A DNA stretch of 64,000 nt from a bacterium (GTDB taxonomy: Bacteria; Patescibacteriota; Andersenbacteria; UBA10190; CAIZMI01), in contig JAUSJG010000013.1 in the NCBI GenBank assembly GCA_030647555.1, positions 12,086-76,085 on the forward strand. The letters run 5' to 3'. The notes beneath the pieces were generated by a model. It was not told the origin of the DNA and searched no databases. It was given only the letters and a program-made list of their open reading frames with translations. Position 1 is the stretch's first letter; each line of letters opens with the position of its first letter. The translations under genes were made by a program, and so were the position numbers. This document shows positions 1-61,061 of the stretch, piece by piece.

Positions 1-154
1 CATCTTATGTTCACTCCATCCTCAACTACAACCACTTCTCAATCAAAAATCTTTCAACGTACGTTTAGTACGTCTCAAGATTTTGTTCAATCAAAGCGGC
101 CATATTTGAGGCGTATTGAACAGAATATGGAGCGTTTATTTATTACCAAGCCCT
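1..154. mobile_element. MITE-like element, copy A (5' part cut by window edge); ~85% identical to copies at 30135-30315 and (reverse) 60882-61061
   Basis: Direct alignment of 1-154 with 30161-30315; shared right end gcgtttatt(t/a)attaccaagccct. Confidence 0.6.
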
Positions 155-156: not shown

Positions 157-345
157 GGAAATTTCTATGAAGTAATTGGGCTCGCGCGTCACAGTGAAAC
201 TCTTGAAGAGTTAGTTGTTTATCGAGCATTGTATGATTCAGAAGAATTTGGTAAAAATTCCATCTGGGTGCGTCCCAAAAGGATGTTTTTGGAGATGGTG
301 GTTGTCGATGGAAAAGAAGTGCAGAGATTTACGCTCGTAGAATAA
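157..345 (+). pseudogene. DUF1653-family small protein, N-terminus displaced by MITE copy A (ATG at 127 runs into TAA at 154; no in-frame start for ...GNFYEVIGLARHSETLEELVVYRALY...WVRPKRMFLEMVVVDGKEVQRF)
   Basis: Translation in frame 1 matches DUF1653 core (HSETxEExVVYRALY...WVRPxxMF) but lacks the usual N-terminal YRHYKG segment. Confidence 0.4.
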
Positions 346-3223: not shown

Positions 3224-3252
3224 CCCGTGCGGTTTTCCGCCCGGGTTTTTTT
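3224..3252 (+). terminator. Intrinsic terminator hairpin cccgtgcggttttccgcccggg + T7; same sequence recurs at 5673-5702
   Basis: GC stem plus T-run seen directly; exact duplicate downstream of 5082-5669 gene. Confidence 0.45.
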
Positions 3253-3331
3253 GCGCGGGTGCAAAAACAACCCTGAGCCTGTCGAAGGGTTTAGAGCTTC
3301 TTGTTTCGATCAATCGAAACGCAAACCTGCA

Positions 3332-3373
3332 TCCACTCCAGGAGCGGAGCAAGGTTGCTCCGCTCCTGGAGTG
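3332..3373. repeat. Palindromic element family 1 (GGAGCAA type): ccactccaggagcggagcaa-gg-ttgctccgctcctggagtgg
   Basis: 20-bp perfect inverted arms; related copies at 46971-47012 and 61133-61207. Confidence 0.7.
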
Positions 3374-3405
3374 GAACTGGTCGTTCTGAAAATAAAGTTA
3401 GCGAA

Positions 3406-3444
3406 ATCAGTGACCGACCCCGGCGTGCGGGGACGGTCCCTGAT
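3406..3444. repeat. Palindromic element family 2 (GACCGTCCC type): atcagtgaccgaccccggcgtgcggggacggtccctgat
   Basis: Identical copy at 7389-7427; related copies 21361-21398, 38601-38639, 48678-48715, 59907-59944. Confidence 0.75.
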
Positions 3445-3550
3445 TTGTCGGATGCACCATTGACTTTTGTCTGTTTTGGGGGTAGGTTGGACGTAAGAAG
3501 CAACCGAAAACTTCCTGAAAGGGTTGTGGCCGAAAGGTCTAGGTTGCTTT

Positions 3551-4117
3551 TTAAATTTCCTTAATAATTCCCTTGCCACACGCTTTGTCAAAAAGCGGTT
3601 TCATTGTTTTGTCTTTTTCTGTTCCGTCTCGTACAAAACCCGCTATTGCGTCCGCTAAACGGATAAATTCCTCTGATTCGTCTCTTGCGCCGCGTGTCAA
3701 TTTTGTTTTGACTCGAAGTTTTCGAAGACCTGCTGCAAACCGCTGTCTTTCATTTTTGCTCAAACCATCGACATAAACTGTGGCAAGATACTCTTCATCG
3801 CCAAAATCCAGAATTGCTTTTGCAGTAGAGAGAATTGTTAAATCTACGTATTCACGCGAATTGAAATAATATGAGAAATATATTTTTCCCAAAAACTTCT
3901 TTTCCTTAAGAATTCGGTTGATGTATTGAACGCGTCGGTCACTGGTGGTTTTTGTCCACTTTTTTGTTTTTCTTGAACTTTTTTCGATATCGCGAAGTAA
4001 TTCGCGCAATTCCTCTCTTTTTTCAGAAACTACGACGATGGCAACGAAAAATATGTTGCCAAGCGTATCTTGTCCAGATTCGTCCACATAAACATCGAAT
4101 TTATTAAGAAGGGGCAT
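3551..4117 (-). CDS. DUF3800-like hypothetical protein
   Basis: N-terminal FDVYVDESG...FFVAIVVV and C-terminal RLADAIAGF resemble DUF3800; weak. Confidence 0.4.
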   Translation of the reverse strand: MPLLNKFDVYVDESGQDTLGNIFFVAIVVVSEKREELRELLRDIEKSSRKTKKWTKTTSDRRVQYINRILKEKKFLGKIYFSYYFNSREYVDLTILSTAKAILDFGDEEYLATVYVDGLSKNERQRFAAGLRKLRVKTKLTRGARDESEEFIRLADAIAGFVRDGTEKDKTMKPLFDKACGKGIIKEI

Positions 4118-4177
4118 ACTGAAATAATATATCATCGAAGACTGATTGGGCGAGGGCGGGGCGGATTTTATTAGTTT

Positions 4178-4225
4178 TTGACAACATATTTAAATAGTGC
4201 AAGGCTGAGGCGTTGTTCTTTGTCT
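4178..4225 (+). promoter_or_regulatory. Conserved promoter-leader module (TTGACA ... cgttgttctttgtc) upstream of 4255 gene; homologous to 6478-6524
   Basis: Direct alignment of 4178-4225 with 6478-6524, same length and shared 14-nt motif. Confidence 0.5.
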
Positions 4226-4254
4226 GAACATTCACAAGAGTAAAGGGGAACATT

Positions 4255-4845
4255 GTGGTCGATCTAGTATTTCCTCCGCCCGCCAAATGGTGGTGTGGCA
4301 TGGCTGATTTCGATTTCTCCCAGGCGTTGAAGGGGCATGAGGCAGTCTTCCGAAAGACTTTCGATCGTGGCGGGCGCCACAAAGCATTTTGTTGGACCCA
4401 CACGCTGGCCGTGGGTACGTCAAAGTATTTGCCACACGGGTATTATTGTGGCCAAGCGTGTTTTGTCGAGCGTGCTTGGAAAACCTGGGGTAATTTCCGT
4501 TTAGCGTGTTTTTGGACTGGGGAAAAGACGGCCAAAAATGTCTATTATGGAATCGTACCTGAAAGTTTTGTTCTCATCCCGTCAATGCATTACTTGAGAC
4601 GAGTAGTAACCAGTCTCGCTGAAAGGCTTGAGTTTAAAATCGTGCGGGGTGGCGCAGATTTTTTAGAGGCAAAACAAGTTCGAATAAAGGTGGAGAAAGA
4701 TAGATTTCACTTGGGCTTTGGTTGGAAACGTTACACAAAAGTTTTTCAAGATGGTCTAAGGGAATTAGAGGTAACTGCGCAGGAAGCAATGCACACCGGT
4801 TACCACTTGAGTATTTTTCGTAGTCACAATATTCTTCGCAAGTAG
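4255..4845 (+). CDS. Hypothetical protein, cassette-type gene (contains CFWTGE motif)
   Basis: ORF with GTG start; own promoter module upstream and terminator + palindromes downstream. Confidence 0.5.
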   Translation: MVDLVFPPPAKWWCGMADFDFSQALKGHEAVFRKTFDRGGRHKAFCWTHTLAVGTSKYLPHGYYCGQACFVERAWKTWGNFRLACFWTGEKTAKNVYYGIVPESFVLIPSMHYLRRVVTSLAERLEFKIVRGGADFLEAKQVRIKVEKDRFHLGFGWKRYTKVFQDGLRELEVTAQEAMHTGYHLSIFRSHNILRK

Positions 4846-4852
4846 AAGTCAT

Positions 4853-4878
4853 CCGCGTCATCGAGACGCGGTTTTTTT
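4853..4878 (+). terminator. Intrinsic terminator ccgcgtcatcgagacgcgg + T7
   Basis: Hairpin and T-run immediately after stop of 4255-4845. Confidence 0.55.
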
Positions 4879-4880
4879 AT

Positions 4881-4932
4881 TTTTCTCATCAGAGAAAAAT
4901 AATCCCCCATAGCTCATCAGCGCGCGCGGGTG
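4881..4932. repeat. Variable palindrome (ttttctcatcagagaaaa) + degenerate 34-bp CAT element (aatcccccatagctcatcag...)
   Basis: Same architecture as 7322-7374, 28296-28351, 38001-38056, 48569-48623. Confidence 0.55.
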
Positions 4933-5006
4933 TTTATTAGGAGTCTCCATAAAAGGAAACACCCAATAAACACGAATCGTTCCCACGTGGGTGACGAAAA
5001 ATTTAT

Positions 5007-5051
5007 TTGCTTAAAATATAAAAGTGGCATAAAACAATATTGTTATTGATC
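5007..5051 (+). promoter_or_regulatory. Putative promoter TTGCTT-17-TAAAAC followed by ttgttattgatc (weaker version of the conserved leader motif)
   Basis: Hexamer spacing read from sequence. Confidence 0.3.
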
Positions 5052-5081
5052 TTTTTTTCTCATTCGAAGAGAGGTTCACAG

Positions 5082-5669
5082 ATGTGTGACGAAAATAATG
5101 AACTCGTTGATCTTGTCCGTTCGATTGCTTCTCCGACCTTGTCACACGAGGCGATCGTGGCTTTGCGTGAATCGGGTATGCTCGATCAACTTTTATTAGC
5201 AGCCAAAAGGAGTCCAGGACGGTTGTCTTTACCACTCGTTCAGCATGAGTTAAGGACGGTGCTGGGGTTTCGTCCAGTAATTGACTGTGACGCGATGTTG
5301 GAATTTGAGGGTTACGAATATCGTAAGGATGATCAGCCCTTGAACAGAATTCGCCACAAGATTTTTTGGGACCCGTTCGCGTTTAGCCGTTACGTTTTTT
5401 CCAGCGTGAAGCTTTGCGACAAGGTGGCCGAAATTCAGGATCTGGTACCGGCGCATGTGTTGCGATTTCTAGTTGATAATCCCGACCAGATGCCGGAGGA
5501 GTATGCATTCTCTGATTTGTTTTTCTGGACGCCGTTGCGAAGTCTGCTGGAAGGGGAACTGTATGTACCCGGTTTGCAACAAGGGAAGTTGTGCTTCCAA
5601 AAGATTGTGGACGCGCAAGGTGCGGTCTTGGTGCCTGCTCGAGCCAGCGATTTGATAGTGGCGTATTAG
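5082..5669 (+). CDS. Hypothetical protein (start at MCDENNELV, RBS gaagagagg)
   Basis: ORF with RBS; followed by terminator repeat; no recognisable domain. Confidence 0.5.
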   Translation: MCDENNELVDLVRSIASPTLSHEAIVALRESGMLDQLLLAAKRSPGRLSLPLVQHELRTVLGFRPVIDCDAMLEFEGYEYRKDDQPLNRIRHKIFWDPFAFSRYVFSSVKLCDKVAEIQDLVPAHVLRFLVDNPDQMPEEYAFSDLFFWTPLRSLLEGELYVPGLQQGKLCFQKIVDAQGAVLVPARASDLIVAY

Positions 5670-5672
5670 TTT

Positions 5673-5702
5673 CCCGTGCGGTTTTCTGCCCGGGATTTTT
5701 TT
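5673..5702 (+). terminator. Intrinsic terminator cccgtgcggttttctgcccggg + T8 (duplicate of 3224-3252)
   Basis: Hairpin and T-run 4 nt after stop. Confidence 0.55.
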
Positions 5703-5727
5703 ATTCGAGAAATTTGTACGCGCAATT

Positions 5728-5945
5728 TGTATCGATATGTCGATACAAAAGAACACTGATTGTTTGTTTTTACTGATTTTTAAAAATCCAACCTTGCTCT
5801 TGTATCGATATATCGATACACAAACAGGCAAAGGCGATATATTTTTTTGCGTTAATTAAATCATGTTGCGCCTGTATCGATATATCGATACACAGATGTT
5901 TGTATTGTTGTAAACGAGTTGCTCTTGTATCGATATGTCGATACA
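5728..5945. promoter_or_regulatory. Four copies of 20-bp palindrome TGTATCGAYATRTCGATACA (5728-5747, 5801-5820, 5873-5892, 5926-5945), each in a promoter-like context (ttgcNc-palindrome-tacaNN)
   Basis: Exact palindromes seen directly; last copy abuts start codon of the TrpR-like gene. Confidence 0.6.
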
Positions 5946-5953
5946 ATTGAGGC

Positions 5954-6364
5954 ATGGCAAAAGTAAAAACGCAAAAATTTACAGCGGAAGAAAAAGAAAA
6001 GTTTGTGAAAAATCTTGGTGCGACAATTCTGAAATATGATAAACCAGATAAAATGGAAAAGTTTTTGCGTGATTTTCTTACGCCAAGTGAAATTATTATG
6101 TTGGCAAGAAGAATCCAAATTGCCGATGGCCTTATAAAAGGAAAAGGGTACCGCGAATTGCACGAAAAATACGGGATTGGAATGAGTACAGTTCAGCTGG
6201 TTGATAAGTGGTTGAGGGTGACAGTTGAAGATTACAAATACGCGCCACCTGGAAAACGCGACAAGAAGCAGAAGAAAACACGTGGCTATTCAAGACGTAG
6301 CGGTATCCAGCTTTTTCTTTCTTATTCAACTGGTCCCAATCCGTATTTTATTTGGCAAAGCTAA
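5954..6364 (+). CDS. TrpR-like YerC/YecD family DNA-binding protein
   Basis: EIIMLARRIQIADGLIKGKGYRELHEKYGIGMSTVQLV matches TrpR_YerC/YecD HTH region. Confidence 0.7.
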   Translation: MAKVKTQKFTAEEKEKFVKNLGATILKYDKPDKMEKFLRDFLTPSEIIMLARRIQIADGLIKGKGYRELHEKYGIGMSTVQLVDKWLRVTVEDYKYAPPGKRDKKQKKTRGYSRRSGIQLFLSYSTGPNPYFIWQS

Positions 6365-6366
6365 TT

Positions 6367-6432
6367 TGTATCGACATATCGATACAAGTCACCGTGTTGG
6401 TTGATATTTTTATGTATCGACATATCGATACA
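6367..6432. promoter_or_regulatory. Two more copies of TGTATCGACATATCGATACA (6367-6386, 6413-6432) downstream of TrpR-like gene
   Basis: Exact palindromes seen directly. Confidence 0.6.
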
Positions 6433-6477
6433 TCATTGCGTGATGCGGTTGAGTGAATTTTTTTAAACTAAAACTTG

Positions 6478-6524
6478 TTGACACAATATTATAATAATGC
6501 TTAAATGAACCGTTGTTCTTTGTC
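6478..6524 (+). promoter_or_regulatory. Conserved promoter-leader module: TTGACA-17-TTAAAT-gaac-cgttgttctttgtc
   Basis: Hexamers with 17-nt spacer; homologous to 4178-4225. Confidence 0.5.
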
Positions 6525-6644
6525 ATTTTTGCCAAGCGTTTGGCTGGACTTTGAACAACATTAACGTCTTTTTCGTCGGTCGTACGTCGAGCCGGGCCCT
6601 GCAAGCGAGGGTTTTTCTCTGACCAGACCGCGAACGGGAGGTGT

Positions 6645-7274
6645 GTGATGGGACATGCGAACGCGGGAACAGATTTTACGATTGATCAAGTCATGGCTAT
6701 TCGGGAGATGGAGAGAAAGTTAGCGCGACAAGGATTTCGCGGTGCTCGAAAAGAGGTTCAAGATGCTTTCGAAGTGTTGCATTACCGTATTAAGGCGTTG
6801 AAAAAACACCGCTTGGTGGATTGTTCTAAGGGGGCGTCTATCCCTGATGGATGTTTGATTCTTGAAGAAGATCAGTTACCGGGAAGAAAGAAAGACGAGA
6901 TGATCCTGAGTGTTCGTTTTATGGAGCTTTGGATTCCGGAAGCCAGGATGCCGGGAATATACAGCAGAGCCGCATTGCTTGAGGAGCTTCAACAAAATGA
7001 ATCAGCGGTACTTCCGTTGAGCGTTCTCGATCACGATCTTCTTTGGCAGCACGGGATTTTCTACGGGCTCATTCCCGATCAAGGTAGCATCTTATTCTGG
7101 GGTACGATCTTTCGCGATGTAAATGGGATTCCAACAGTAAAAGGGTTGTCTCGAAAGCGAGCGGACATTTATCTGCGAGATTTCCCCATCGACAGCTTGC
7201 GGAGTACTGTGCCACAGCGCGAATATGTTGCGCTTTATGTCAACGCTCCAATGATTGACACCGGTGTCTGGTAA
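6645..7274 (+). CDS. Hypothetical protein, FWGT-motif family (paralog of 20738-21304)
   Basis: Shared segment LL..I...LIP....(I/V)(L/F)FWGT..R...G with 20738 protein; atypical codon usage. Confidence 0.5.
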   Translation: MMGHANAGTDFTIDQVMAIREMERKLARQGFRGARKEVQDAFEVLHYRIKALKKHRLVDCSKGASIPDGCLILEEDQLPGRKKDEMILSVRFMELWIPEARMPGIYSRAALLEELQQNESAVLPLSVLDHDLLWQHGIFYGLIPDQGSILFWGTIFRDVNGIPTVKGLSRKRADIYLRDFPIDSLRSTVPQREYVALYVNAPMIDTGVW

Positions 7275-7374: not shown

Positions 7375-7388
7375 ATTTATTTTTTTAA

Positions 7389-7427
7389 ATCAGTGACCGA
7401 CCCCGGCGTGCGGGGACGGTCCCTGAT
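7389..7427. repeat. Palindromic element family 2, identical to 3406-3444
   Basis: Exact repeat. Confidence 0.75.
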
Positions 7428-7473
7428 TTGTTCGCGTATTCCTATTTCATCAATCATCATTCATAATCACCTT

Positions 7474-8055
7474 ATGATCGCCTCTCTCACTGGCACAATT
7501 GAACACGTATCAATGGACTCTGTTGTTATGCAGGTGAATGGGATTGGTTATCGTGTTTATACTCTGGCTTCGGTTTTGAGTGTGCTGAAGGTTGGCGAGA
7601 AAATTACGATGAAAACATATTTAAGTGTACGGGAAAATGATTTATCGCTTTATGGGTTTCAGAATCCGCGTGAGCTGGCTTTCTTTAAATTGCTTTTGCA
7701 GGCGCCGGGGATTGGGCCCAAGACCGCCTTGAACGTGATGGCAATTGCAACGGTCGATACTTTGATTCGCGCTGTCGCTTCCGGTGATGTGACGCTTCTG
7801 ACAAAAGTTTCCGGAATCGGCAAAAAAACGGCGGAAAGAATTGTGGTTGAATTAAAAACAAAACTGGAAAAAGAACATCCGGAACTTTCAGGGAAGGGGC
7901 CGAGTGTTCACTCGGATGTTATATCGGCGCTTTCAAGTTTGGGCTACAGCCCAATTCAGGCGCGGGAAGTGGTGCGGCAGTTGCCGGAAGAATTGAAGGA
8001 TGCGGAAGCGGGCATTAGAGCGGCGTTGAAGATTTTGGGAAGCAATAAGAAATGA
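7474..8055 (+). CDS. ruvA: Holliday junction branch migration complex subunit RuvA
   Basis: MIASLTGTIEHV... OB fold, HhH motifs (GIGPKTA, GIGKKTAERI), C-terminal domain. Confidence 0.9.
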   Translation: MIASLTGTIEHVSMDSVVMQVNGIGYRVYTLASVLSVLKVGEKITMKTYLSVRENDLSLYGFQNPRELAFFKLLLQAPGIGPKTALNVMAIATVDTLIRAVASGDVTLLTKVSGIGKKTAERIVVELKTKLEKEHPELSGKGPSVHSDVISALSSLGYSPIQAREVVRQLPEELKDAEAGIRAALKILGSNKK

Positions 8056-8190
8056 ATTTGAAATTTGAAATTTTTAATTTGAAATCAATTTGAAAGGATT
8101 AAATTTGAAATATCTAAAACAGCGTTTTCAAATTAAAACATTTAGTTATTTCAAATTGATTAAAAATTTCAAATTTCAAATTAAAAATTG
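8056..8190. repeat. Long AT-rich hairpin (aatttgaaatttgaaatttttaatttgaaatcaatttgaaa ... inverted); near-identical copy at 36080-36212, partial at 54521-54555
   Basis: Inverted arms read directly; likely terminator/MITE after ruvA. Confidence 0.6.
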
Positions 8191-8198
8191 ATGAAATA

Positions 8199-9289: not shown

Positions 9290-9425
9290 TGAATTATCAA
9301 TTTTCAATGATCAATTATCAATTAATTATCAAATTTTAAATTTTCAAATCACGCCAACGTTTTGATAATTTAATCATTGAACATTGATCATTAATTGAAA
9401 ATTGGGAATTGAAAATTGAAAATTT
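9290..9425. repeat. Long AT-rich hairpin (atcaattttcaatgatcaattatcaattaa...); related copy 51716-51830
   Basis: Inverted arms after femAB stop. Confidence 0.5.
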
Positions 9426-9504
9426 ATCAACCACTGGGTACGATGCAGTCAATACAACAACAAGTTGTTGACGATAAACACCAATAATAATATAAAGATT
9501 CATC

Positions 9505-20409: not shown

Positions 20410-20540
20410 CAAAAATCCCAATGACCAAACCCCAATGTCCAACAAAAACCCAATTATCAAAATTCCAAAGTTGCGATTTTTTTTGGTTATTAAAATTTTT
20501 GAATTTTGTTGGGCATTGGTCATTGGGGTTTGGGATTTTG
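20410..20540. repeat. Long hairpin element (tcccaatgaccaaaccccaatgtccaacaaaa ... ttttgttgggcattggtcattggggtttggga); family copies 24997-25125, 32453-32605, 53893-54027, 57531-57660
   Basis: Inverted arms ~32 bp; same arm sequence after rpoC, ftsK, ychF, uvrC, uvrA. Confidence 0.65.
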
Positions 20541-20622
20541 AAACCTAAATATGAATAACCAAACAAAAATATCCAATAATGGCTAAAGTAAGCCTCAAAA
20601 GACTAACTTTCATATTATATTA

Positions 20623-21475: not shown

Positions 21476-21700
21476 ATGGAATTCAGACAATCGCTCTTTT
21501 GGGACACCGATCCCAAGAAAATTGATCCGCAAAAACACGCGCAATACATCATTGAGCGCGTGGCGGATTTTGGTAACGATAAAGAAGCGCGTTGGGTCTT
21601 GGATTTTTATGACAAACCGCTGCTTCAAAACATTATTTCTAAATCGCGCTGTTTAAGGCCGCGCACAAAAAAATTATGGACGCTTTTGGTCAACAGATAG
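21476..21700 (+). CDS. Small protein (MEFRQSLFWDTDPKKIDPQKH...), putative partner/antitoxin of the downstream AbiEii-family gene; overlaps it by 25 nt
   Basis: ORF directly after promoter; overlap suggests coupling. Confidence 0.4.
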   Translation: MEFRQSLFWDTDPKKIDPQKHAQYIIERVADFGNDKEARWVLDFYDKPLLQNIISKSRCLRPRTKKLWTLLVNR

Positions 21701-22347
21701 TTTGGCAATACCAAACACTGCCTGCTAACACAAAAAAAGCGTTAGATTTTTTGTCCGCGGAAAATTGGTTGGAAAAAACCGATTGGTATTTGGCAGGAGG
21801 CACAGCCTTGGCATTGCAGGCGGGGAATCGAAAATCTTTCGATTTAGATTTTTTTACTGTTCAAAAAGATTTTGATGGTAAAAAACTGCTTGCCAATTTT
21901 TTGGGTAATGATAATTGGAAGACAGATATTGAAGATACAAATACGATCTATGGGCAATTATTTGGGGCTAAAGTAAGTTTTATTGCTTACCCGTTTTTTA
22001 TCCCAAAGCAAAGGTTTATTCAACATGGTTCTGTGTGCGTGCTTGATAAGACTGACGTTGCGGTGATGAAAATAACGGCCATTTCTCAACGGGGCAGGAA
22101 GAGAGATTTTTTTGATTTATATTGGTGCGCGACAAACATCGAATCATTGGAAAACATCGTTAAACGGCTTAAAGAACAATATCCGTTTATTGCGCATAAT
22201 TATCACCACATTCTTAAAAGTCTAGTGTATTTTGACGATGCGGAAGGCGATCCCGAACCGGAGGTTTATTTTGATGCCACATGGGAAAAAGTTAAAGAAT
22301 ATTTTACAAAAGAAGTTCCGTCGATTGTCGACAAGATAGTGAATTAA
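21676..22347 (+). CDS. Nucleotidyltransferase AbiEii/AbiGii toxin-family protein
   Basis: WYLAGGTALALQAGNRKSFDLDFF motif typical of AbiEii NTases. Confidence 0.65.
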   Translation: MDAFGQQIVWQYQTLPANTKKALDFLSAENWLEKTDWYLAGGTALALQAGNRKSFDLDFFTVQKDFDGKKLLANFLGNDNWKTDIEDTNTIYGQLFGAKVSFIAYPFFIPKQRFIQHGSVCVLDKTDVAVMKITAISQRGRKRDFFDLYWCATNIESLENIVKRLKEQYPFIAHNYHHILKSLVYFDDAEGDPEPEVYFDATWEKVKEYFTKEVPSIVDKIVN

Positions 22348-24962: not shown

Positions 24963-24996
24963 AGCCTCGCTCTGAAGAGCGGGGCGGGGGTGGGTT

Positions 24997-25125
24997 TGGT
25001 TATTAAACCCCAAATCCCAATGACCAATGTCCAACAAAACCATAATTACTAAAATCCCAAAACGCGTATTTGGTCATTAGTATTTTGGAATTTTGTTGGA
25101 CATTGGGGTTTGGGATTTGGGGTTT
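24997..25125. repeat. cccaatgaccaa-family long hairpin after ftsK
   Basis: Arm sequence shared with 20410-20540. Confidence 0.6.
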
Positions 25126-25188
25126 AAAAGGCACTTGTGTCGGTGAAGGCTAGGAGAAAATCAATTAGTAATGCTAAAGTAAATCCAT

Positions 25189-28519: not shown

Positions 28520-28924
28520 TTACCGTGCATATGTGGAGATAATTTTTTTGTTCAGTTTTCTTTCCATTTCAAAAAAGGGGGCGTAGTTGTGATAAATCTT
28601 GAACGCATTTAGTTTAAATTTTAATAAATCCCGCCTGTCGCCATAGAGCAGGATTGGATTTTTGCTTACTTGGAACGACAAAAGCGGATTGGCTTTGTTT
28701 AAAATTGTTAGATCGACTTCTTTGTTGAAGATTGCGGAAAGTTCATTGATTAAATCAACATGTTCCTTAAAAAAAACGTCTTTCATGCCTAAAACGGCAA
28801 TGTCTAAATCGCTGTCCTTTCTTTGTTTTCCAGTCGCAAAAGAACCAAAAACAACCACCAATTTCAGTTGAAATTTTTTGGTGAGTTCAGTGATCTTCGT
28901 TTTTTGATCTTGGGTCGTTTCCAT
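28520..28924 (-). CDS. Nucleotidyltransferase (MNT-type), no adjacent HEPN partner
   Basis: FGSFATGKQRKDSDLDIAV motif. Confidence 0.65.
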   Translation of the reverse strand: METTQDQKTKITELTKKFQLKLVVVFGSFATGKQRKDSDLDIAVLGMKDVFFKEHVDLINELSAIFNKEVDLTILNKANPLLSFQVSKNPILLYGDRRDLLKFKLNAFKIYHNYAPFFEMERKLNKKIISTYAR

Positions 28925-29057: not shown

Positions 29058-30131
29058 ATGGTAAAAAAATCTTTACAAACAGAACGAGCAAAGGCGGCAG
29101 CTTTGGCTGTCGAGCAGATTAAAGAGCGTTTTGGCGATGGTTCGATTATGCTTCTTTCGGAAGCACGAAAAGTAGATGTTGATGTTATTCCAACGGGCTC
29201 AATTTCGCTTGATTTGGCGCTAGGCGTCGGCGGTATTCCTCGTGGCCGTATTATCGAGGTCTATGGTCCGGAAAGCTCCGGTAAAACCACGCTGGCGCTA
29301 CATATGATTGCCGAAGCCCAAAAGAAGGGTGGGATTGCGGCCATTGTGGACGCGGAACACGCGATGGATCCAAACTATGCCGGTAAAATCGGCGTTAAAA
29401 TGGATGAGTTATTAATCTCTCAGCCGGATAATGGTGAGCAAGCCCTGGAAATTGTAGAGACGCTAATTTCGAGTAATGCTGTTGATATTATCGTTGTCGA
29501 CTCGGTCGCAGCCTTAACCCCGCGCGCGGAAATTGAAGGAGAAATGGGTGATTCTCACATGGGCCTACATGCTCGCTTGATGAGTCAAGCGTTACGCAAA
29601 ATTACCGCTATTGTTGCCAAATCAAAAACAACGGTTATTTTTATTAATCAGATTCGGATGAATATCGGGGTGATGTTTGGCAATCCGGAAACGACAACGG
29701 GTGGTAAGGCGTTGAAGTTTTATTCCTCCGTGCGTTTGGAAGTACGTCGTCGCGCGCAAATTAAAAAAGACGAAAAAATTATCGGTAGTCGTACTGTGGT
29801 GAAGGTTGTAAAAAATAAAGTGGCGGCGCCGTTCCAATCCACGGAATTCGATATTATGTACAACGAGGGAATCAGTCGCCAAGGGGATATTGTGGACACG
29901 GGTGTTCGGTTTAATGTTTTGCAGAAATCCGGTTCTTGGGTTTTGTATCATGAAGTAAAAATGGGCCAAGGGCGCGAGCAAGCCAAGCAATTTTTGCGAG
30001 AAAATCCGGAATTAGCCAAAGAAATTGAAGGCGCGATTATGACGGCCGCCGCGGCGCAAGAAGAGCAAGCTACGCAAGCATCCGCTCGTCCGGAAGACGA
30101 AGATGAGGACGAAACACCGGCACCGGTCTAA
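29058..30131 (+). CDS. recA: Recombinase RecA
   Basis: GPESSGKTT Walker A, L1/L2 loops, full-length conservation. Confidence 0.97.
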
Positions 30132-30134: not shown

Positions 30135-30315
30135 AGGGCTTGATAATTAATAAACGCCTTATCTTATGTCCAATCCATCTCCAAATACAACCGCTTCTCA
30201 ATCAAAAATCTTTCAACGTATGTCAAATACGTCTCAAGATTTTGTTCAATCAAAGACAGTTGTCTTTGAAGCGCATTGAACATAATCTTAAAGCGTTTAT
30301 TAATTACCAAGCCCT
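30135..30315. mobile_element. MITE-like element copy B (181 bp) with 23-bp TIRs agggcttgataattaataaacgc / gcgtttattaattaccaagccct, inserted 4 nt after recA stop
   Basis: TIRs and ~85% identity to copy A (1-154) and reverse copy C (60882-61061). Confidence 0.7.
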
Positions 30316-30317
30316 AA

Positions 30318-30523
30318 TGGACAAACGGAGGACTTATAAAAAAATTGATCTGGAAGGGATTGATTTGCCCGGACCACGGCGCGAGACGGTGATGTTGCCT
30401 AAATCAAACACGTGGAAGTATTGGGTGGGTGCGTTTGTGTTGCTCGGATTTGTATCGGCGATGGTGCTGTTGAATTGGAACGCGGTGAGCCAAGCGGCGT
30501 TTGTGCGGGCATTGGTAAATTAG
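30318..30523 (+). CDS. Small hypothetical membrane protein (68 aa, one TM)
   Basis: ATG immediately after MITE end; hydrophobic segment. Confidence 0.3.
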
Positions 30524-32337: not shown

Positions 32338-32452
32338 AACTCGCTAGAATGTAACACGAGGGGCTAAATTGTGCAAGCACGAGGGGGCTTGGATATTGTG
32401 ACTTGGGGATTTATTCGGAATTAAAGCTTGATTAGTGGTAACTCAACCTTTT

Positions 32453-32605
32453 AAATCCCAATGACCAAACCCCAATGTCCAACAAAACTTCAAAATCTTA
32501 ATGACCAAAATGACACTTCTTTGGGATTTTAGAAATTAGAATTTTGTTGCCTGCCGGCCGAAGCTTTAGCGAAGGCTGGGTCATTGGGATTTGGAGTTTG
32601 GAGTT
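32453..32605. repeat. cccaatgaccaa-family long hairpin with nested ~30-bp insertion (ctgccggccgaagctttagcgaaggctggg)
   Basis: Arm sequence shared; aagctttagcgaag also at 28366-28379. Confidence 0.55.
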
Positions 32606-33838: not shown

Positions 33839-34240
33839 TTGCGATATTATTGGCGCATGACGGAAGAAAATTTAGTGATTTATTGGCAAGAAGGGGCGCG
33901 AGAAGCGTGGAAAACCGCGGAGGCTTTAATGGCATCAAAACGTTATGTGCATACTCTTTTCTTTTGCCATTTAACACTAGAAAAGGCGTTAAAAGCTTGT
34001 TATGTCGATGTGAACAAGGTTCCCTCTCCACCAGTACATGATTTAAACTGGTTGGCGGAAGAGGCAAAAGTTAGTGTGAGTGATGATGATAAAAATATAC
34101 TTGCGGAAATATCAAAATTTAATATCGCCGGGCGTTATGAAGATTATAAATTGCGTTTGCACGAAGAGGCTACTTTTGAATACGTCAGTCGCTGGGTGGG
34201 TGAAACAAAAAGGCTGATGGATGTTTTATTGGCCGAATAA
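33839..34240 (+). CDS. HEPN domain protein (toxin component)
   Basis: HEPN-like helices with AGRYEDY R-x-H type motif region; overlaps MNT gene by 20 nt. Confidence 0.55.
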   Translation: MRYYWRMTEENLVIYWQEGAREAWKTAEALMASKRYVHTLFFCHLTLEKALKACYVDVNKVPSPPVHDLNWLAEEAKVSVSDDDKNILAEISKFNIAGRYEDYKLRLHEEATFEYVSRWVGETKRLMDVLLAE

Positions 34241-34583
34241 TATGATTATAGAAAATAAACCCGACCAAGAAGCGATTCAAATCGCACAAAGGTTTGGTGA
34301 TTTGGTAAAAAAACAGGGCGTTGATGTGCGAAAGGTCTTGTTGTTTGGATCTCGCGCGCGCGGTGGCTGGAAACCATGGAGCGATGTCGATATTTGCGTT
34401 ATCTCGCCTCAATTTGGCAAGAATGTTTCGGAAGAAATGGGCATGTTGTTGCGTCTTACCGTACAATTAAAATCGCCATTTCCCGTTGAGCCGATTCCTT
34501 TCGGCTTGGATGATCTTGAAGACAAATTCAGCACGCTTGCGAACGAAATTCGTAAGTATGGCGTTTCTGTAGAAATTAAATAA
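34221..34583 (+). CDS. Nucleotidyltransferase (MNT-type antitoxin)
   Basis: LFGSRARGGWKPWSDVDICV motif. Confidence 0.7.
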   Translation: MFYWPNNMIIENKPDQEAIQIAQRFGDLVKKQGVDVRKVLLFGSRARGGWKPWSDVDICVISPQFGKNVSEEMGMLLRLTVQLKSPFPVEPIPFGLDDLEDKFSTLANEIRKYGVSVEIK

Positions 34584-36048: not shown

Positions 36049-36079
36049 AATAGACTGTTATTGATATATTAAGATAATT

Positions 36080-36212
36080 AATTTGAAATTTGAAATTTTT
36101 AATTTGAAATCAATTTGAAAGATATAAATTTGAAATACCGAAAACAGCGTTTTCAAATTATGATATTAAATTATTTCAAATTGATTAAAAATTTCAAATT
36201 TCAAATTAAAAA
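36080..36212. repeat. Long AT-rich hairpin, near-identical to 8056-8190
   Basis: Direct alignment. Confidence 0.65.
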
Positions 36213-36297
36213 TTGGGTTGTCTTTATCTGACAACAAAGTTGTATTACATAAAATGGCTAATATGAGCCATAAATAGAGCGGGTAAATACCCTCCTA

Positions 36298-44450: not shown

Positions 44451-45263
44451 TGTTGGCCCGCCTTTTTTCTTAAAATTCTTTTCCGGGCGTCGGGAGTTAG
44501 TACGATTTGGTTGTGTGCGGGGGCCGTTGCCGACGGGGGCCGTATTTTGATGTGGTGTCGCATTTTGGCGCACCGGTCCGCGTTGGGTGTGTTGCGGTTT
44601 GTGTGGTCGGTTAAAATTCTTGGGACCACGATTGTCACGATTTTTTTGGGGCACCGGCCCGTTATTTTTCCCTGGAATACTTGGTACTGCTGGGGGTGCG
44701 AAACTTGCTGTAAACATTCTATCTATAAAATAAAAAAATTAATCTGTACAAAACGGTTTTTCGGTGGATGTAAGGCAAAAAATTATCGCCAAACTGATCT
44801 ACCCTAGAAGCAAGGGTGAAACAACTCTAGAGAGCTGTGAGGCAGTGTTACCACGTGCCGTAAGGAATATAAATTCCTTAAGTACTTTGATAGTGTAACA
44901 TGGCGCGATAATTTTGTCAAAAATGATCATTTTTTATTAGTCAGTGAGAAGCTCCGAGACTCGGCGCTTTCGAGCGCCTAGAGTCTCGGAGTTCTTCGAT
45001 TCTTGTGCAAAACGACTCAACAGGATGTTGAATCGTTTTGTGTACATTTTATAGTTTCGCAAAGCGAAACAAATCTCGAGTGCCGAGGGCGGGAGTTGGT
45101 CACAAATAAATTTTCTGACGAAAATTTTTCGCGACCCCCGCTCGCGGTTTTTGCCTTGCCCTGCGGGGCAAACAAAAACATCGCTGCGCGTTTCAAATCC
45201 CCCGCAACACAAGCAGTTGTGTTGCGGTTTAGCACCATTAAAAGGCTCAGAAAAGCCTTTTAA

Positions 45264-46970: not shown

Positions 46971-47012
46971 CCGATCACGGAACGGAGCAACCTTGCTCCG
47001 TTCCGTGATCGG
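46971..47012. repeat. Palindromic element family 1 (ccgatcacggaacggagcaa-cc-ttgctccgttccgtgatcgg); supplies the last ~12 codons and stop of the HepT gene
   Basis: Overlap of palindrome with 3' end of ORF 46975-47439. Confidence 0.65.
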
Positions 47013-47439
47013 TGTTGGTCGCCACTACCTTGCTGATTATTTGCACGAATTGTTCAAGATCTCCCAAATTGTTTTGGAGGTTTTCGTATACTATTTCCGG
47101 ATCAACGTCCAAATAATCGTGGACCAAGACATTGCGGAAACTTTTCGCTTTTGTCAGTTTGACAGCGAGTTCTTCGGACAAGATTCCCGAGTTTGCCAAT
47201 ATTTCAAATTCACTATTTTTTTCGCCGGGCTTTTGTAATTTGTTTTCAATTATTAAATAACGCGCGATATCAACAACGGTCTCCAGTCCTGTTTGGAACA
47301 GGCGTTCCACCGAAAGTTCGTTGCGTTCATCGGCAAAGTATTCGTTTTTCGACAGCGCTTGGTATTTTTTCAGCTTTTCCAGTGTTTCTTCCAGCGAGGA
47401 TAATTTATTGACGACTATTTCTTTAGTTATTTCAGTCAT
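46975..47439 (-). CDS. HepT-like HEPN (DUF86) toxin; C-terminus read through a palindromic element
   Basis: RNVLVHDYLDVDPEIVY Rx4HxY motif. Confidence 0.7.
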   Translation of the reverse strand: MTEITKEIVVNKLSSLEETLEKLKKYQALSKNEYFADERNELSVERLFQTGLETVVDIARYLIIENKLQKPGEKNSEFEILANSGILSEELAVKLTKAKSFRNVLVHDYLDVDPEIVYENLQNNLGDLEQFVQIISKVVATNTDHGTEQGCSVP

Positions 47440-47443
47440 TATA

Positions 47444-47890
47444 TTATGATGCGGTTAAATTGTTTAAGAAAGATTGGTTGTAAAGTTTCAGAAAATCTTT
47501 TTGGTCGTCGTATTCACGTAAAACCGCCATCTCGAATTTTACGCGTTCTCCATGTTCTTTTTCCGCTAGAACAATACCTTCACTGATCACCGCCATCCGC
47601 AAAGCGAGCGGGGCTTGGTTGAGTACGGAAATATCCAGCGCTTCTGTTGGTACATCAAAAATTTTTCCAATTATTTCGTGCGCGATTAAACGCGCGTCAA
47701 ACTGTGTCTGTTTTGAAGCATTGGGATCCAAAAATAAGGCGATGTCGATATCGCTTTCCTCATGTATGTCGCCGGAAACGGCGGAACCGAAAATATAGGC
47801 AAACAAAATCGGAAGGCCGGCCATTTCTTTTTCGGCCAGTTTGTTTAAATCGTCTGTGACAGTAATTTTCTTCGCGCCAAAGCGTTTCAT
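47444..47890 (-). CDS. Nucleotidyltransferase (MNT-type antitoxin)
   Basis: FGSAVSGDIHEESDIDIAL motif; 4-nt gap to HepT. Confidence 0.75.
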   Translation of the reverse strand: MKRFGAKKITVTDDLNKLAEKEMAGLPILFAYIFGSAVSGDIHEESDIDIALFLDPNASKQTQFDARLIAHEIIGKIFDVPTEALDISVLNQAPLALRMAVISEGIVLAEKEHGERVKFEMAVLREYDDQKDFLKLYNQSFLNNLTAS

Positions 47891-51675: not shown

Positions 51676-51715
51676 GTGGGTATTATACACCAAACATGCG
51701 AAAAATTTTCAATAA

Positions 51716-51830
51716 TCAATTTCCAATTATCAATGAATTATCAATTAACTAATTTTCAATGACGACGCCGAATTGAAAATTGGAATTTGATCATTAATTG
51801 ATAATTGGCCATTGAAAATTGATACTTATA
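51716..51830. repeat. AT-rich hairpin (caataatcaatttccaattatcaatgaattatcaatta...), related to 9290-9425
   Basis: Inverted arms. Confidence 0.45.
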
Positions 51831-53892: not shown

Positions 53893-54027
53893 AAAATGAC
53901 CAATGACCAATACTCAATGGCCACTCAATTATTAAATGATTTAATGTCCAATTTTGAATCCGTGTTTAGTGTCTATTAGTTAATTGGTTATTGAGTGGTC
54001 ATTGGCCATTGGGATTTGGTCATTCGT
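53893..54027. repeat. cccaatgaccaa-family long hairpin upstream of uvrC
   Basis: Arm similarity. Confidence 0.5.
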
Positions 54028-54668: not shown

Positions 54669-57530
54669 ATGGCAAATGTTATCACCATCCGCGGGGCGCG
54701 CGTTCATAACTTAAAAAACGTCGATGTAACCATTCCACGCGACAAGCTGGTGGTTATCACCGGACTCTCGGGTTCCGGTAAATCTTCTCTCGCTTTTGAT
54801 ACACTTTACGCGGAAGGGCAACGTCGTTATGTTGAATCGCTTTCCGCTTACGCTCGGCAGTTCTTGGGTTTGATGGACAAACCGGACGCCGACCAAATTG
54901 ACGGGCTAAGTCCGGCAATTTCCATCGATCAAAAATCCGGGACACGCAATCCGCGTTCTACGGTAGGTACTGTTACAGAAATTTACGATTATCTTCGTTT
55001 GCTTTTTGCCAGAACCGGTGTCCCGCATTGTCCGCAGTGTGGAAAGATGATTCGTCGTCAAACAATCAAGGAAATTACCGATCAGATTTTGAATTTGCCG
55101 GACGGCTCAAACATTATGGTGTTGGCGCCCAAGATTCGCGACCGCAAAGGTGAGCACAAACAAATTTTCAAAGAAATTGAACAGCAGGGTTATGTGCGCG
55201 CTCGTGTCGACGGCTCGGTTTATGATTTGCAAGAAGCGCAACAATTGGAATTGGATAAACAAAAAAAGCATTCTATTGAGGTTGTGATCGATCGCTTGTT
55301 AATTGATAAGCGCAACTTGGATCGTCCGCGCATTGCCGACTCGGTAGAAACAGCAACCCGTATTGGTGGGGGCATTGTGATCATCGAAGATCGCACCGCG
55401 AAAAAAGATTTTGTTTATTCTGAACAATTTGCTTGTTCGGATTGTGGGATCAGTTTGACCGAAGTGGAACCAAGAATGTTTTCGTTTAATAGTCCGCACG
55501 GCGCGTGTCCGGCTTGTACCGGTCTTGGTACGCAATTGGAAGTAAACGAAGAACTTGTAATTCCTAATCGCAAATTAACTTTGGCCGAAGGCGCCATTAA
55601 ACCGTGGAGTCGCCGGATGCGTGGCAGTTCATGGGCGATGTGGATTTTGGAAGCAGTGGCTAAAAGAAACCATTTTTCGTTGGATGTGCCGGTTAGTAAG
55701 TTATCGGAAGAAGTAATGGAAATTATTATGTTTGGTATGGGTGACGAAAAAATCACTGTGAAAACCGAAGAGGGTACGACGATGGAAACAAAATTTGAAG
55801 GTGTGGTTCCCAATTTGATGCGTCGCTACAAAGAAACGGATTCGGATTATGCCAGAAGCGAAATCGAGCGTTATATGGTGAGCAAGCCCTGTCCGGTTTG
55901 CAAAGGGAAGCGTCTTAAGCCGGAATCATTAAGCGTTTTCTTGGCCGGAAAAAATATGCACGAAGTTGTGTCATTAACTATCGCTGATAACTACAAACTC
56001 TTTTCTGATCTCGCGCAAAACCCGAAATCACACGAAACTTTTGGTCCACGTGAGCAAATTATCGGCAAGCAGGTATTACTGGAAATTCGTGCTCGCTTGA
56101 AGTTTTTACTCGACGTCGGTTTGGATTATCTGACTTTAGATCGTTCGGCCGCCACATTGGCCGGCGGTGAAGCGCAACGGATTCGTTTAGCCACACAAAT
56201 TGGTTCCGGTCTCGTTGGGGTGCTTTATATTTTGGACGAACCGTCAATTGGTTTGCATCAACGCGATAATTCGCGCTTGATTGGCACATTGAAAACTTTG
56301 CGTGATTTGGGTAACTCGGTAATTGTTGTGGAACACGACGAAGAGATGATTCGTAATGCGGATTATGTGATTGATGTCGGGCCGGGCGCCGGTGAACACG
56401 GCGGGCAAATTGTTTTCGCGGGAACGGCGAAAGCATTGGAAAAATCCAACACGCTTACCGGCAAATATCTCGCCGGAAAAATGGAAATTCCTGTGCCGAA
56501 GAAAAAGCGCGCCGGAAATGGAAAGACATTGGTCATCAAAGGCGCGACCGAACACAATTTACAAAACGTCGATGTAAAAATTCCGTTGGGTAAATTTGTT
56601 TGCGTGTCCGGTGTTTCCGGTTCCGGAAAATCGACATTGATTAACGATATTCTCTCGAAGGTCTTGGCCAAAGAATTCTACGGGGCCAAAGATTTGCCGG
56701 GTAAACACGATAGTGTTCAAGGTCTGCAAAATCTCGACAAAGTAATTATGATTGATCAATCGGCAATTGGTCGCACCCCACGCAGTAATCCTGCCACATA
56801 TACCGGCGTCTTTACCGCGATTCGCGAATTGTTTTCGGCCACTCCGGAAGCAAAAGTGCGCGGTTATGATGCCGGACGTTTTTCTTTCAATGTACGTGGT
56901 GGTCGTTGTGAAACCTGTCAGGGTGACGGAGTGATTCGGATTGAAATGCAATTTTTACCGGACGTTTACGTGGAGTGCGAAGAGTGTCACGGTAAACGTT
57001 ACAATCGCGAAGCGTTGGATATTCTTTATAAAGGAACAACGATTGCGGAAATTTTGAATATGACGGTGGAACGGGCGCACGAATTTTTCCGTGCTATTCC
57101 GGCGATTGAATCGAAATTGGCCGTGCTTGAACAAGTTGGTCTTGGCTATGTCCACTTGGGTCAACCGGCGACGCAACTTTCCGGTGGTGAAGCACAGCGC
57201 ATTAAATTGGCCACAGAACTTTCCCGTCGCGCCACCGGTAAAACAATTTATATTTTGGATGAACCGACAACGGGTTTGCATTTCGATGATGTCCGTAAAT
57301 TGTTAACTGTTTTGCATGCGTTGGTCGACAAAGGTAATTCTGTTTTAGTCATCGAACACAATCTCGATGTTCTTAAAGCGGCCGATTGGATTATTGATTT
57401 GGGCCCGGAAGGTGGAAACAAAGGCGGAGAAATTATCGCCGAAGGTACGCCGGAAGAAGTATCACGCGTGGCGAAGAGTTACACAGGGCAGTATTTGAAG
57501 GGGATGCTGGGGAAGAAAAAGACAAAATAA
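54669..57530 (+). CDS. uvrA: Excinuclease ABC subunit A (UvrA)
   Basis: Two ABC ATPase modules ([14 protein letters not shown]; [13 protein letters not shown]), zinc fingers. Confidence 0.97.
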
Positions 57531-60881: not shown

Positions 60882-61061
60882 AGGGGACTGACGTAAATAA
60901 ACTGTCCATATTCTGTTCAATACGCTCTGAATACAAGTACTGCGACCGAACAAAATTTCGAAGCGTACTAGCAGTACGTTGAGAGATTTTGTGACCGAGC
61001 AGTGCTTGTAGTCAGAGATGTAGTGGACATAAGATGGATAGTTTATTTACGTCTGTCCCCT
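60882..61061. mobile_element. MITE-like element copy C (180 bp, reverse orientation) with 26-bp TIRs aggggactgacgtaaataaactgtcc / ggatagtttatttacgtctgtcccct
   Basis: Core aligns to reverse complement of copy A. Confidence 0.65.

What the first reader, a model, noticed from the sequence alone, without database searches (positions are those of the whole stretch)
30135..30315. 180-bp MITE family with 23-26-bp TIRs; one copy disrupts a DUF1653 gene
Three copies lie at 1-154 (truncated by the window edge), 30135-30315 and 60882-61061 (reverse). Their cores are about 85% identical.

Copy B has TIRs agggcttgataattaataaacgc / gcgtttattaattaccaagccct and starts 4 nt after the recA stop. Copy C has divergent TIRs (aggggactgacgtaaataaactgtcc) on the same core.

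Copy A ends inside the 5' end of a DUF1653-family ORF. The ATG at 127 lies within the element and hits TAA at 154. The conserved DUF1653 sequence resumes at 157 without a start codon. This is a likely insertional inactivation or N-terminal replacement.

No transposase lies in the window, so the element is non-autonomous.
Basis: seen in the sequence. Interest (0 to 1): 0.55.

Follow-up and report, generated by a model that had tools for sequence, protein, structure and literature searches.

The report
Mobile 180-bp hairpin repeat family
A small non-coding DNA repeat that folds into a long hairpin has copied itself into gene boundaries of tiny uncultured (Parcubacteria-type) bacteria and has cut the start off one gene; it is a new family of an already familiar kind of element, with an unusual structure conserved on one strand only.

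Summary
Three copies of a 178-181-bp repeat lie at 1-154 (cut by the window edge), 30135-30315 (+) and 60882-61061 (-). Identities are A/B 85% and C about 75%.

Thirteen more copies occur in other genomes and metagenomes, with unrelated flanks. Relatives have empty sites for all three window copies, including an intact 76-aa DUF1653 gene, so the element is mobile and copy A truncates DUF1653. It is non-coding, and none of 30 window ORFs scanned is a transposase.

It is not a textbook MITE:
- The core is more conserved than the ends (83% vs 66%).
- The arms come in at least five co-varying types.
- No consistent target-site duplication can be shown.
- The hairpin is conserved on one strand only. 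The same 69 pairs are 97.3% standard pairs on that strand and 86.8% on the other, with two invariant G·U pairs.
- The better-folding strand is usually antisense to the flanking genes (12 of 15 copies).

The mobilising enzyme is unknown.

Verdict: a new family of a known kind (MITE/ERIC/REPIN-like palindromic repeats) in Patescibacteria, of moderate interest.

The parts
1..154 (+). Copy A. The right 154 nt of the element; about 25 nt of the left arm lie upstream of the window. It ends in CCAAGCCCT.
   Evidence: nhmmer E = 1.3e-49, profile positions 26-179.
30135..30315 (+). Copy B, complete, 181 nt, between recA and a 68-aa membrane ORF.
   Evidence: 97% identical to L001, a copy in another genome.
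60882..61061 (-). Copy C, complete, 180 nt, opposite orientation, arm type 2.
   Evidence: Same subfamily as metagenome copy L086.
30135..30157 (+). Left arm of copy B: AGG tip, about 10 variable nt, then the AAATAAAC box.
   Evidence: Pairs with 30293-30315 at 22/23.
30293..30315 (+). Right arm of copy B.
60882..60907 (+). One arm of copy C (AGGGGACTGACGTAAATAAACTGTCC).
   Evidence: Pairs 24/26 with 61036-61061.
61036..61061 (+). The other arm of copy C.
30205..30243 (+). Central hairpin of copy B (AAAATCTTTCAACGTA ... TACGTCTCAAGATTTT), highly conserved.
30198..30204 (+). TCAATCA, the 5' side of the symmetric internal loop. The same heptamer lies on the 3' side.
   Evidence: Both sides read TCGGTC in the type-2 subfamily (winC, L086).
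30246..30252 (+). TCAATCA, the 3' side of the internal loop.
157..345 (+). DUF1653 (PF07866) remnant: 62 codons plus stop, lacking about 14 N-terminal codons. There is no in-frame start codon before the TTG at 229.
29058..30131 (+). recA, the left flank of copy B (context).
30317..30523 (+). 68-aa membrane ORF, the right flank of copy B. It is conserved next to recA in relatives (context).

Best explanation
This is a family of about 180-bp non-coding, non-autonomous mobile repeats of Parcubacteria-type (Patescibacteria) bacteria. It belongs to the general class of MITE / ERIC / REPIN-like palindromic elements.

Shown:
- Copies are bounded units of 178-181 bp, dispersed at unrelated loci in several genomes.
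- They are absent from the orthologous sites of close relatives.
- Two copies sit inside genes: copy A in DUF1653, and L005 in another ORF.
- The whole element folds into one rod-like hairpin kept by many compensatory changes.
- Pairing is nearly perfect on only one strand, here called the 'bottom' strand: the reverse complement of copies A and B as they lie in the window.

Inferred:
- An enzyme encoded elsewhere moves the element. It recognises the conserved tips (AGG...CCT) and the sub-terminal AAATAAA/TTTATTT boxes presented on a stem whose middle is free to vary.
- The selected form is single-stranded, either ssDNA or RNA of the bottom strand.
- Insertion is into A/T sites (TA/TAA), which are common at stop/start junctions of tightly packed genes. 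It adds at most 1-3 duplicated nucleotides.
- Surviving copies mostly lie so that the mRNA carries the weaker-folding strand.
- Whether the enzyme is a DDE transposase (classical MITE, about 0.4), a hairpin/ssDNA-specific enzyme (about 0.3) or something else is open.
- Copy A most likely inactivated DUF1653 recently.
For: - Family and bounds.
- Empty sites: the DUF1653 site in L092; the recA site in L103 and L099, plus a 13-nt remnant in L096; the copy C site in L105.
- In-gene copy L005: the reading frame is restored by removing 181 + 1 nt.
- Non-coding: variable columns fall equally on the three codon positions (24/50, 26/49, 24/49), and the ORF differs between subfamilies.
- Structure: 69 pairs, 32 with changes on both sides, 0 of 500 shuffles as good, slid controls 41-46% paired.
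- Strand asymmetry: 97.3% vs 86.8% paired. The bottom-strand RNA MFE is lower by 9-32 kcal/mol in 15 of 15 copies. The asymmetry also holds with DNA parameters.
- Orientation: 12 of 15 copies have the weaker strand as the sense strand.
- No transposase in 30 ORFs.
- No Rfam family.
Against: - No mobilising gene and no ORF-containing version of the element was found.
- The target-site duplication is not consistent: 6 of 15 copies have a perfect TWA repeat, 11 of 15 a 1-nt match.
- Only 16 copies were analysed, and they fall into a few subfamilies, so many compensatory changes are shared by descent.
- The orientation bias is modest (12:3).
- Two copies (L090, L091) have non-matching arms.
- Expression of either strand is untested.
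Confidence: 0.72

Rival explanations
1. Classical MITE. It is an internal-deletion derivative of a DDE insertion sequence (for example IS5/PIF-like with a TWA target, or IS630-like with a TA target), moved as double-stranded DNA by a transposase that binds the terminal inverted repeats.
For: - Size, 23-26-bp terminal inverted repeats, conserved AGG/GGG tips and AAATAAA box.
- Flanks are TA/TAA-rich: the right flank reads TWA in 15 of 16 copies, and 6 of 15 copies have perfect TWA direct repeats.
- Presence/absence polymorphism.
- From memory only: IS5/PIF-Harbinger ends start GGG/GGC and duplicate TWA.
Against: - The arms are the least conserved part (66% vs 83% for the core).
- There are at least five arm types on near-identical cores.
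- Invariant G·U positions and a one-strand fold have no role for a dsDNA-binding enzyme.
- The two insertions calibrated by coding sequence do not fit a clean 3-bp TWA duplication as they stand. Copy A does not fit it given the codons of the one relative compared (L092). L005 fits only if one copy of the repeat has since mutated (CTA vs TTA).
- No transposase in the window.
- No partner found.
Confidence: 0.4
2. Hairpin-mobilised element. It is moved as a single strand by a structure-specific enzyme, either HUH/Y1-type as for IS200/IS605 and REPIN-RAYT, or a recombinase acting on folded DNA as at integron attC.
For: - A strand-specific fold with G·U(T) tolerated on one strand only.
- Stems co-vary freely while the tips are fixed.
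- A net duplication of 0-1 nt in the two calibrated cases.
- Orientation bias.
- The REPIN precedent (PMC3116915).
Against: - Ends are symmetric inverted repeats, unlike IS200/IS605.
- The arms are not themselves short palindromes, so they are not REPs.
- The attC core sites RYYYAAC/GTTRRRY are absent, and copies are not in arrays.
- No HUH or integrase gene among 30 ORFs.
- In a window with uniform GC skew, the copies lie 2:1 in orientation.
Confidence: 0.28
3. A functional RNA element, either a cis-acting processing/stability hairpin or a small RNA gene, that the host keeps. Its mobility is secondary.
For: - The fold is very strongly conserved.
- Copies sit 3-33 nt after stop codons, and the next ATG lies 2-15 nt after the right end in at least 9 of 16 copies.
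- Copy C lies behind a consensus promoter that would transcribe its well-folding strand, and it is followed by a hairpin plus a T-run.
Against: - Sites are not conserved between relatives.
- Copies interrupt genes.
- In 12 of 15 copies the well-folding strand is antisense to the neighbouring genes.
- No conserved promoter lies inside the element.
- No Rfam match.
Confidence: 0.12
4. Chance similarity or a segmental duplication rather than a discrete element.
For: None beyond copy A being cut by the window edge.
Against: - E-values of 1e-49 or lower.
- Sharp common boundaries in 15 complete copies.
- Unrelated flanks.
Confidence: 0.01

Closest known systems
Bacterial MITEs such as Correia/NEMIS (Neisseria) and RUP (Streptococcus); from my own knowledge
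   Same: Size of 100-200 bp, terminal inverted repeats of about 25 bp, A/T (TA) insertion sites, many intergenic copies next to genes. Transcripts fold into long hairpins. For Correia, no transposase is known either.
   Different: There is no match to any described RNA family in Rfam. Here the ends vary and co-vary while the core is conserved, the target-site duplication is unclear, and the fold is one-strand-specific.
ERIC/IRU and YPAL imperfect palindromes of enterobacteria; from my own knowledge
   Same: Imperfect palindromes of 127-168 bp that span the whole element. They are co-transcribed with flanking genes, have orientation-dependent RNA hairpins, and their mobilising enzyme is unknown.
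   Different: A different phylum and sequence. Covariation and arm types were not compared directly.
REPINs mobilised by RAYT transposases (PMC3116915)
   Same: Non-autonomous, hairpin-forming doublets of inverted repeats. The hairpin is thought to form in ssDNA or RNA.
   Different: REPIN arms are themselves short palindromes (REPs) and are the most conserved part. Here the arms are not palindromic and are the least conserved part. No RAYT was seen.
Integron attC sites; from my own knowledge
   Same: A hairpin that folds on one strand only (the bottom strand). Stem sequence is free and structure is fixed. The site lies between co-directional genes just after stop codons.
   Different: There are no R''/R' core sites, no arrays and no integrase. 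There is a conserved 130-nt core, and the flanking genes are housekeeping genes (recA, uvrB, groESL).

Membership tests
MITE | Small size (under about 600 bp) and no coding capacity | tested here: met
   178-181 bp. No codon-position bias among variable sites, and the ORF is frame-shifted between subfamilies.
MITE | Terminal inverted repeats | tested here: met
   22/23 and 24/26 matches in the window copies. 13 of 15 complete copies have matching arms.
MITE | Multiple dispersed copies with insertion polymorphism | tested here: met
   16 copies in at least 3 genomes plus metagenomes. Empty sites in relatives.
MITE | Target-site duplication of fixed length | tested here: inconclusive
   Left flank NTA/TAA, right flank TWA. 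6 of 15 copies have a perfect 3-nt repeat, 11 of 15 a 1-nt match. Copies A and L005 fit a net 1 nt.
MITE | Parent autonomous IS with the same ends, and a transposase in trans | tested here: inconclusive
   No transposase domain in 30 window ORFs. Viral-contig scans gave only chance hits. The genome and metagenome scans had to require both halves or the centre of the element, so a full-length IS could not have been seen.
MITE | Ends more conserved than the interior (transposase binding sites) | tested here: not met
   Mean pairwise identity is 66% for the arms and 83% for the core.
REPIN/RAYT | Each arm is a short palindromic REP, and the arms are the conserved part | tested here: not met
   The arm sequences are not self-complementary and are the variable part.
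REPIN/RAYT | A RAYT (Y1 HUH) gene flanked by the repeats | tested here: inconclusive
   None among 30 window ORFs. Whole genomes were not available.
Integron attC | R'' RYYYAAC and R' GTTRRRY core sites at the ends; tandem cassette arrays | tested here: not met
   The ends are AGG...CCT and the inner boxes AATAAAC/GTTTATT do not fit the core-site consensus. Copies lie 30 kb apart next to recA, uvrB and groESL.
Any Rfam RNA family | Score at or above the family's gathering threshold | tested here: not met
   Only the tRNA passes in the window. At relaxed E-values the element hits only plant miRNA-precursor hairpin models far below threshold.

The most novel reading that the evidence does not exclude
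The element may be moved as a folded single strand by an enzyme that reads shape (a long stem with fixed tips and a symmetric TCAATCA/TCAATCA internal loop) rather than arm sequence. That would be a new hairpin-dependent transposition system in the reduced genomes of Patescibacteria. The co-varying arm types would be neutral 'barcodes', and the invariant G·U(T) positions would mark the active strand.
Probability: 0.2. Interest if true: 0.7.

Novelty: new member of a known kind. Interest (0 to 1): 0.42.

Why it matters
Mobile elements are thought to be scarce in the roughly 1-Mb genomes of candidate-phyla-radiation bacteria. I found no paper on MITEs in them.

This family shows active insertion and loss at essential-gene junctions: recA, uvrB/DUF1653 and groESL. 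One gene has been truncated. The same subfamily is 97% identical in unrelated genomes from similar lakes, which suggests horizontal spread.

The one-strand-specific, covariation-supported fold gives a concrete handle for asking how an element without a visible transposase moves. The same question is still open for Correia and ERIC elements.

Practically, these repeats break short-read assemblies: contigs L102 and L104 end inside repeats.

Tried and rejected
- Recovering the left end of copy A. Exact-protein look-ups either failed or returned only short Logan contigs that end in repeats. The source is an NCBI MAG contig of 122,775 bp (UvrB = MDO8512327.1), but its DNA was not retrievable.
- A coding ORF inside the element. 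Rejected.
- A known RNA family. Rejected.
- An attC site or a REPIN. Defining features not met.
- Similar DNA in plasmid or phage records. None.
- Arm or core patterns in viral contigs. Only chance hits, one of them inside a phage ORF.
- A mutational (deamination or skew) origin for the strand asymmetry. Unlikely. The window has positive GC skew throughout. Copies A and B carry the weaker-folding strand, which shows A·C mismatches where the other strand has G·U, on that G-rich strand.
- Spurious-ORF census. Only 7 representative proteins match the element ORF in 1.84 billion, so the family is rare.
- A sliding MFE scan of the window was not informative.
- A precise target-site duplication from the copy C empty site. 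Not possible, because relative L105 has a different gene there.

Full report
**Observation.** The three copies are real and lie at the stated coordinates.
- A profile built from them hits only 1-154, 30135-30315 and 60882-61061 in the 64-kb window (E = 1e-49 to 8e-55; the next hits have E > 4).
- A/B are 84.7% identical. C is 75.5% identical to A and 73.2% to B.
- Each copy is 73-76% complementary to itself along its whole length.
- Copy B's arms match 22/23 and copy C's 24/26. C's arms differ from B's on both sides.
- Copy B begins after the recA stop plus a second TAA. It ends one nucleotide before the ATG of a 68-aa membrane ORF.
- In copy A, the ATG at 127 runs into TAA 154-156, and a DUF1653 reading frame follows from 157.

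**The family elsewhere.**
- A scan of one genome per species found five copies in 'uncultured bacterium Loc090907-8-6m_bin-405' and one in a Candidatus Parcubacteria MAG. Two Apilactobacillus hits were chance matches.
- A metagenome scan added seven copies.
- Outside the element the flanks are unrelated, while winB and L001 are 97% identical.
- All 15 complete copies are 178-181 bp with the same boundaries: AGG(G)... to ...(C)CCT.
- The window itself is part of an NCBI MAG contig of 122,775 bp (UvrB MDO8512327.1).
- Its RecA is closest to unnamed MAG proteins, then to Andersenbacteria/Parcubacteria proteins at about 70-75%.

**Mobility and the DUF1653 claim.**
- The 62-codon fragment at 157-342 matches PF07866 proteins of 75-77 aa at 82-89% identity. 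It lacks their first ~14 residues, M.EE...GKYQHYK.
- A syntenic relative (L092, uvrB 85% identical in DNA) has the intact gene. Homology to the window resumes exactly at window 155, AAGGAAATT. Copy A therefore sits in codon 13-14.
- No in-frame start codon remains before the TTG at 229, and the frame coming out of the element ends in TAA. The gene is most likely inactivated.
- The 62 remaining codons carry no stop or frameshift, so the insertion is probably recent.
- Downstream of recA, relatives L103 (83% DNA identity) and L099 (76%) have the same small ORF 5 nt and 1 nt after the recA stop, with no element.
- The closest relative, L096 (88%), has only GGGGCTTGAAAAT, the first 13 nt of the element, between TAG and ATG. 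Window 30148-30316 is missing. I read this as a remnant of near-precise loss.
- At the copy C site, relative L105 has no element but a different gene.
- Copy L005 lies inside a minus-strand ORF whose frame is restored by removing 181 + 1 nt.

**Not coding, no known RNA, no transposase nearby.**
- Variable alignment columns fall equally on the three codon positions (24/50, 26/49, 24/49).
- The ORF that starts at the conserved ATG ends at different places in different subfamilies.
- Rfam gives nothing at gathering thresholds. At relaxed thresholds it gives only far sub-threshold hits to plant miRNA-precursor hairpins.
- Thirty window ORFs scanned against Pfam include FtsK, RodZ, RNase J, UvrC, FemAB and several HEPN/nucleotidyltransferase pairs. 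None is a transposase or recombinase.
- Plasmid and phage records hold nothing similar.

**Anatomy.**
- The element is one rod-like hairpin: outer stem, conserved inner stems, a symmetric internal loop and a central hairpin.
- The outer stem is an AGG tip, about 10 variable bp, then an AAATAAAY/RTTTATTT box.
- The conserved inner stems include ATCTTATG... paired with ...ATTGAACA.AAT.
- The internal loop carries the same heptamer, TCAATCA, on both sides. Both sides read TCGGTC in the type-2 subfamily.
- On the aligned (top) strand, RNAalifold predicts 57 pairs, 29 of them with compensatory double changes.
- On the reverse complement (bottom strand) it predicts 69 pairs, 32 with double changes, at -92 against -57 kcal/mol.
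- For the same 69 pairs, 97.3% of cells are standard pairs on the bottom strand and 86.8% on the top strand. On the bottom strand no shuffle out of 500 reaches the observed values. On the top strand the same holds for four of the five measures; 13 of 500 shuffles reach the observed number of further pair types. Slid partners give 30-46%.
- Two pairs are G·U in all 15 copies (A6 columns 37/147 and 44/140). Several others alternate G·U with A·U or G·C.
- The bottom strand folds better in all 15 copies, by 9-32 kcal/mol as RNA. For copy B the values are -46.9 vs -34.6 kcal/mol as DNA and -87.7 vs -57.6 as RNA.
- A mutational origin is unlikely. The window has positive GC skew throughout. Copies A and B carry the weaker-folding strand, with A·C mismatches where the other strand has G·U, on that G-rich strand.

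**Ends versus core.**
- Mean pairwise identity is 83% in the core and 66% in the arms.
- At least five arm types exist, and in 13 of 15 copies the two arms match each other.
- Near-identical cores carry different arms: L008/L002 have core 92% and arms 60%; L008/L091 have core 96% and arms 56%.
- L090 and L091 have arms of two different types.
- Exchange between copies (gene conversion or recombination) would explain both the mosaics and the homogeneous core. This is inference.

**Insertion sites.**
- The right flank reads TWA (counting the terminal T) in 15 of 16 copies. The left flank reads TAA or NTA.
- A perfect 3-nt TWA direct repeat is seen in 6 of 15 copies, and a 1-nt match in 11 of 15.
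- The two coding-calibrated cases (copy A against L092; L005) fit AGGG...CCCT plus one duplicated A/T. They do not fit a clean TWA duplication as they stand. Copy A does not fit it given the codons of the one relative compared, L092. L005 fits it only if one copy of the repeat has since mutated, CTA against TTA. The duplication is therefore unresolved.
- Copies lie 3-33 nt after stop codons. In at least 9 of 16 an ATG follows the right end within 2-15 nt.
- The top, weaker-folding strand is the sense strand of the neighbouring genes in 12 of 15 scorable copies.
- No convincing promoter or terminator lies inside the element.
- Copy C, one of the three reversed copies, lies behind a consensus promoter (60789-60817) that would transcribe its well-folding strand.

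**Interpretation.**
- The element is a mobile, non-autonomous, non-coding palindromic repeat.
- It does not behave like a transposase-bound-TIR MITE. The ends are the variable part, they co-vary as a stem, and selection acts on the fold of one strand.
- That points to a single-stranded form, ssDNA or RNA, as the selected state. The enzyme remains unknown.
- I give about 0.4 to a DDE-type MITE whose hairpin matters at the RNA level, about 0.3 to a hairpin/ssDNA-specific mechanism, and the rest to other routes.
- REPINs (PMC3116915), ERIC and Correia elements, and attC sites are the nearest analogues. None is a match on its defining features.

**Rarity and novelty.**
- Only 13 further copies were found by strict patterns in the two large collections.
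- Only 7 representative proteins in 1.84 billion match the element's spurious ORF.
- Full-text searches found no paper that describes MITEs in Patescibacteria or the candidate phyla radiation.
- The finding is a new family of a known kind with some unusual, testable features, and is of moderate interest.

Noticed in passing
window 20413-20548, 24995-25131, 32447-32549, 57526-57656; also 9292-9428, 51700-51827, 53895-54024: A second family of about 130-nt AT-rich imperfect palindromes built from CCAAT/ATTGG-like words. They occupy intergenic spacers.
   Followed up: no
window 3206, 3404-3448, 7387-7431, 21357, 38599, 48676, 59904: A GC-rich 45-nt hairpin repeat (AAATCAGGGACCGTCCCCGGCGTGCGGGGACGGTCCCTGATTT). 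The copies at 3404 and 7387 are 100% identical. Short-read contig L104 ends at both.
   Followed up: partly
window 8051-8192 and 36076-36215: Two copies (92% identical) of a 138-nt AT-rich palindrome, another MITE-like repeat.
   Followed up: no
window 4870, 7316, 28287, 37992, 48559: A repeat made of a T-run, a variable hairpin and the conserved AATCCCCCATAGCTCATCAGAGCGACGGGGGATGT. It may be a terminator-like module or another repeat family.
   Followed up: no
window 44950-45080 (- strand); L001 6875-7005: A stretch of about 130 nt with three hairpins, about 180 nt downstream of the tRNA-Leu gene in the window. It is 90% identical to a stretch in bin-405 that directly follows what looks like a tRNA 3' end (GGTTCGATTCC motif; no tRNA scan was run on L001). 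The flanks are unrelated and there is no Rfam family. It is a candidate conserved small RNA or a shared mobile repeat.
   Followed up: partly
window about 2600-6500: A block of genes: an HTH regulator, DUF3800, hypothetical proteins and a TrpR-like gene. Six 25-nt palindromes (TGTATCGATATGTCGATACAA) lie at 5724-6433. The block is absent from relative L092, where the homologue of window 6497-6651 follows uvrB within about 50 nt. It is probably an inserted island.
   Followed up: partly
window 60789-60817 and 61054-61078: A consensus promoter (TTGACA-17-TATGAT) lies inside the last 17 codons of the nucleotidyltransferase-like gene and points into copy C. A short hairpin plus a T-run follows copy C. 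These 17 codons and the promoter are missing in relative L105.
   Followed up: partly
L096 4073-4086: A 13-nt remnant (GGGGCTTGAAAAT) of the element's left tip lies between the recA stop and the next ATG in the closest relative. It suggests near-precise loss of a former copy.
   Followed up: yes
window 33839-34583, 46975-47887, 28520-28921, 21676-22344: Several toxin-antitoxin-type genes in 64 kb: HEPN plus nucleotidyltransferase, HepT plus MntA-like, a Polbeta nucleotidyltransferase, and AbiEii.
   Followed up: no
window 61269-61298: A CIRCE-like inverted repeat (TTGGCACTC-N9-GAGTGCTAA) lies in front of groES/groEL and is conserved in relative L105.
   Followed up: no
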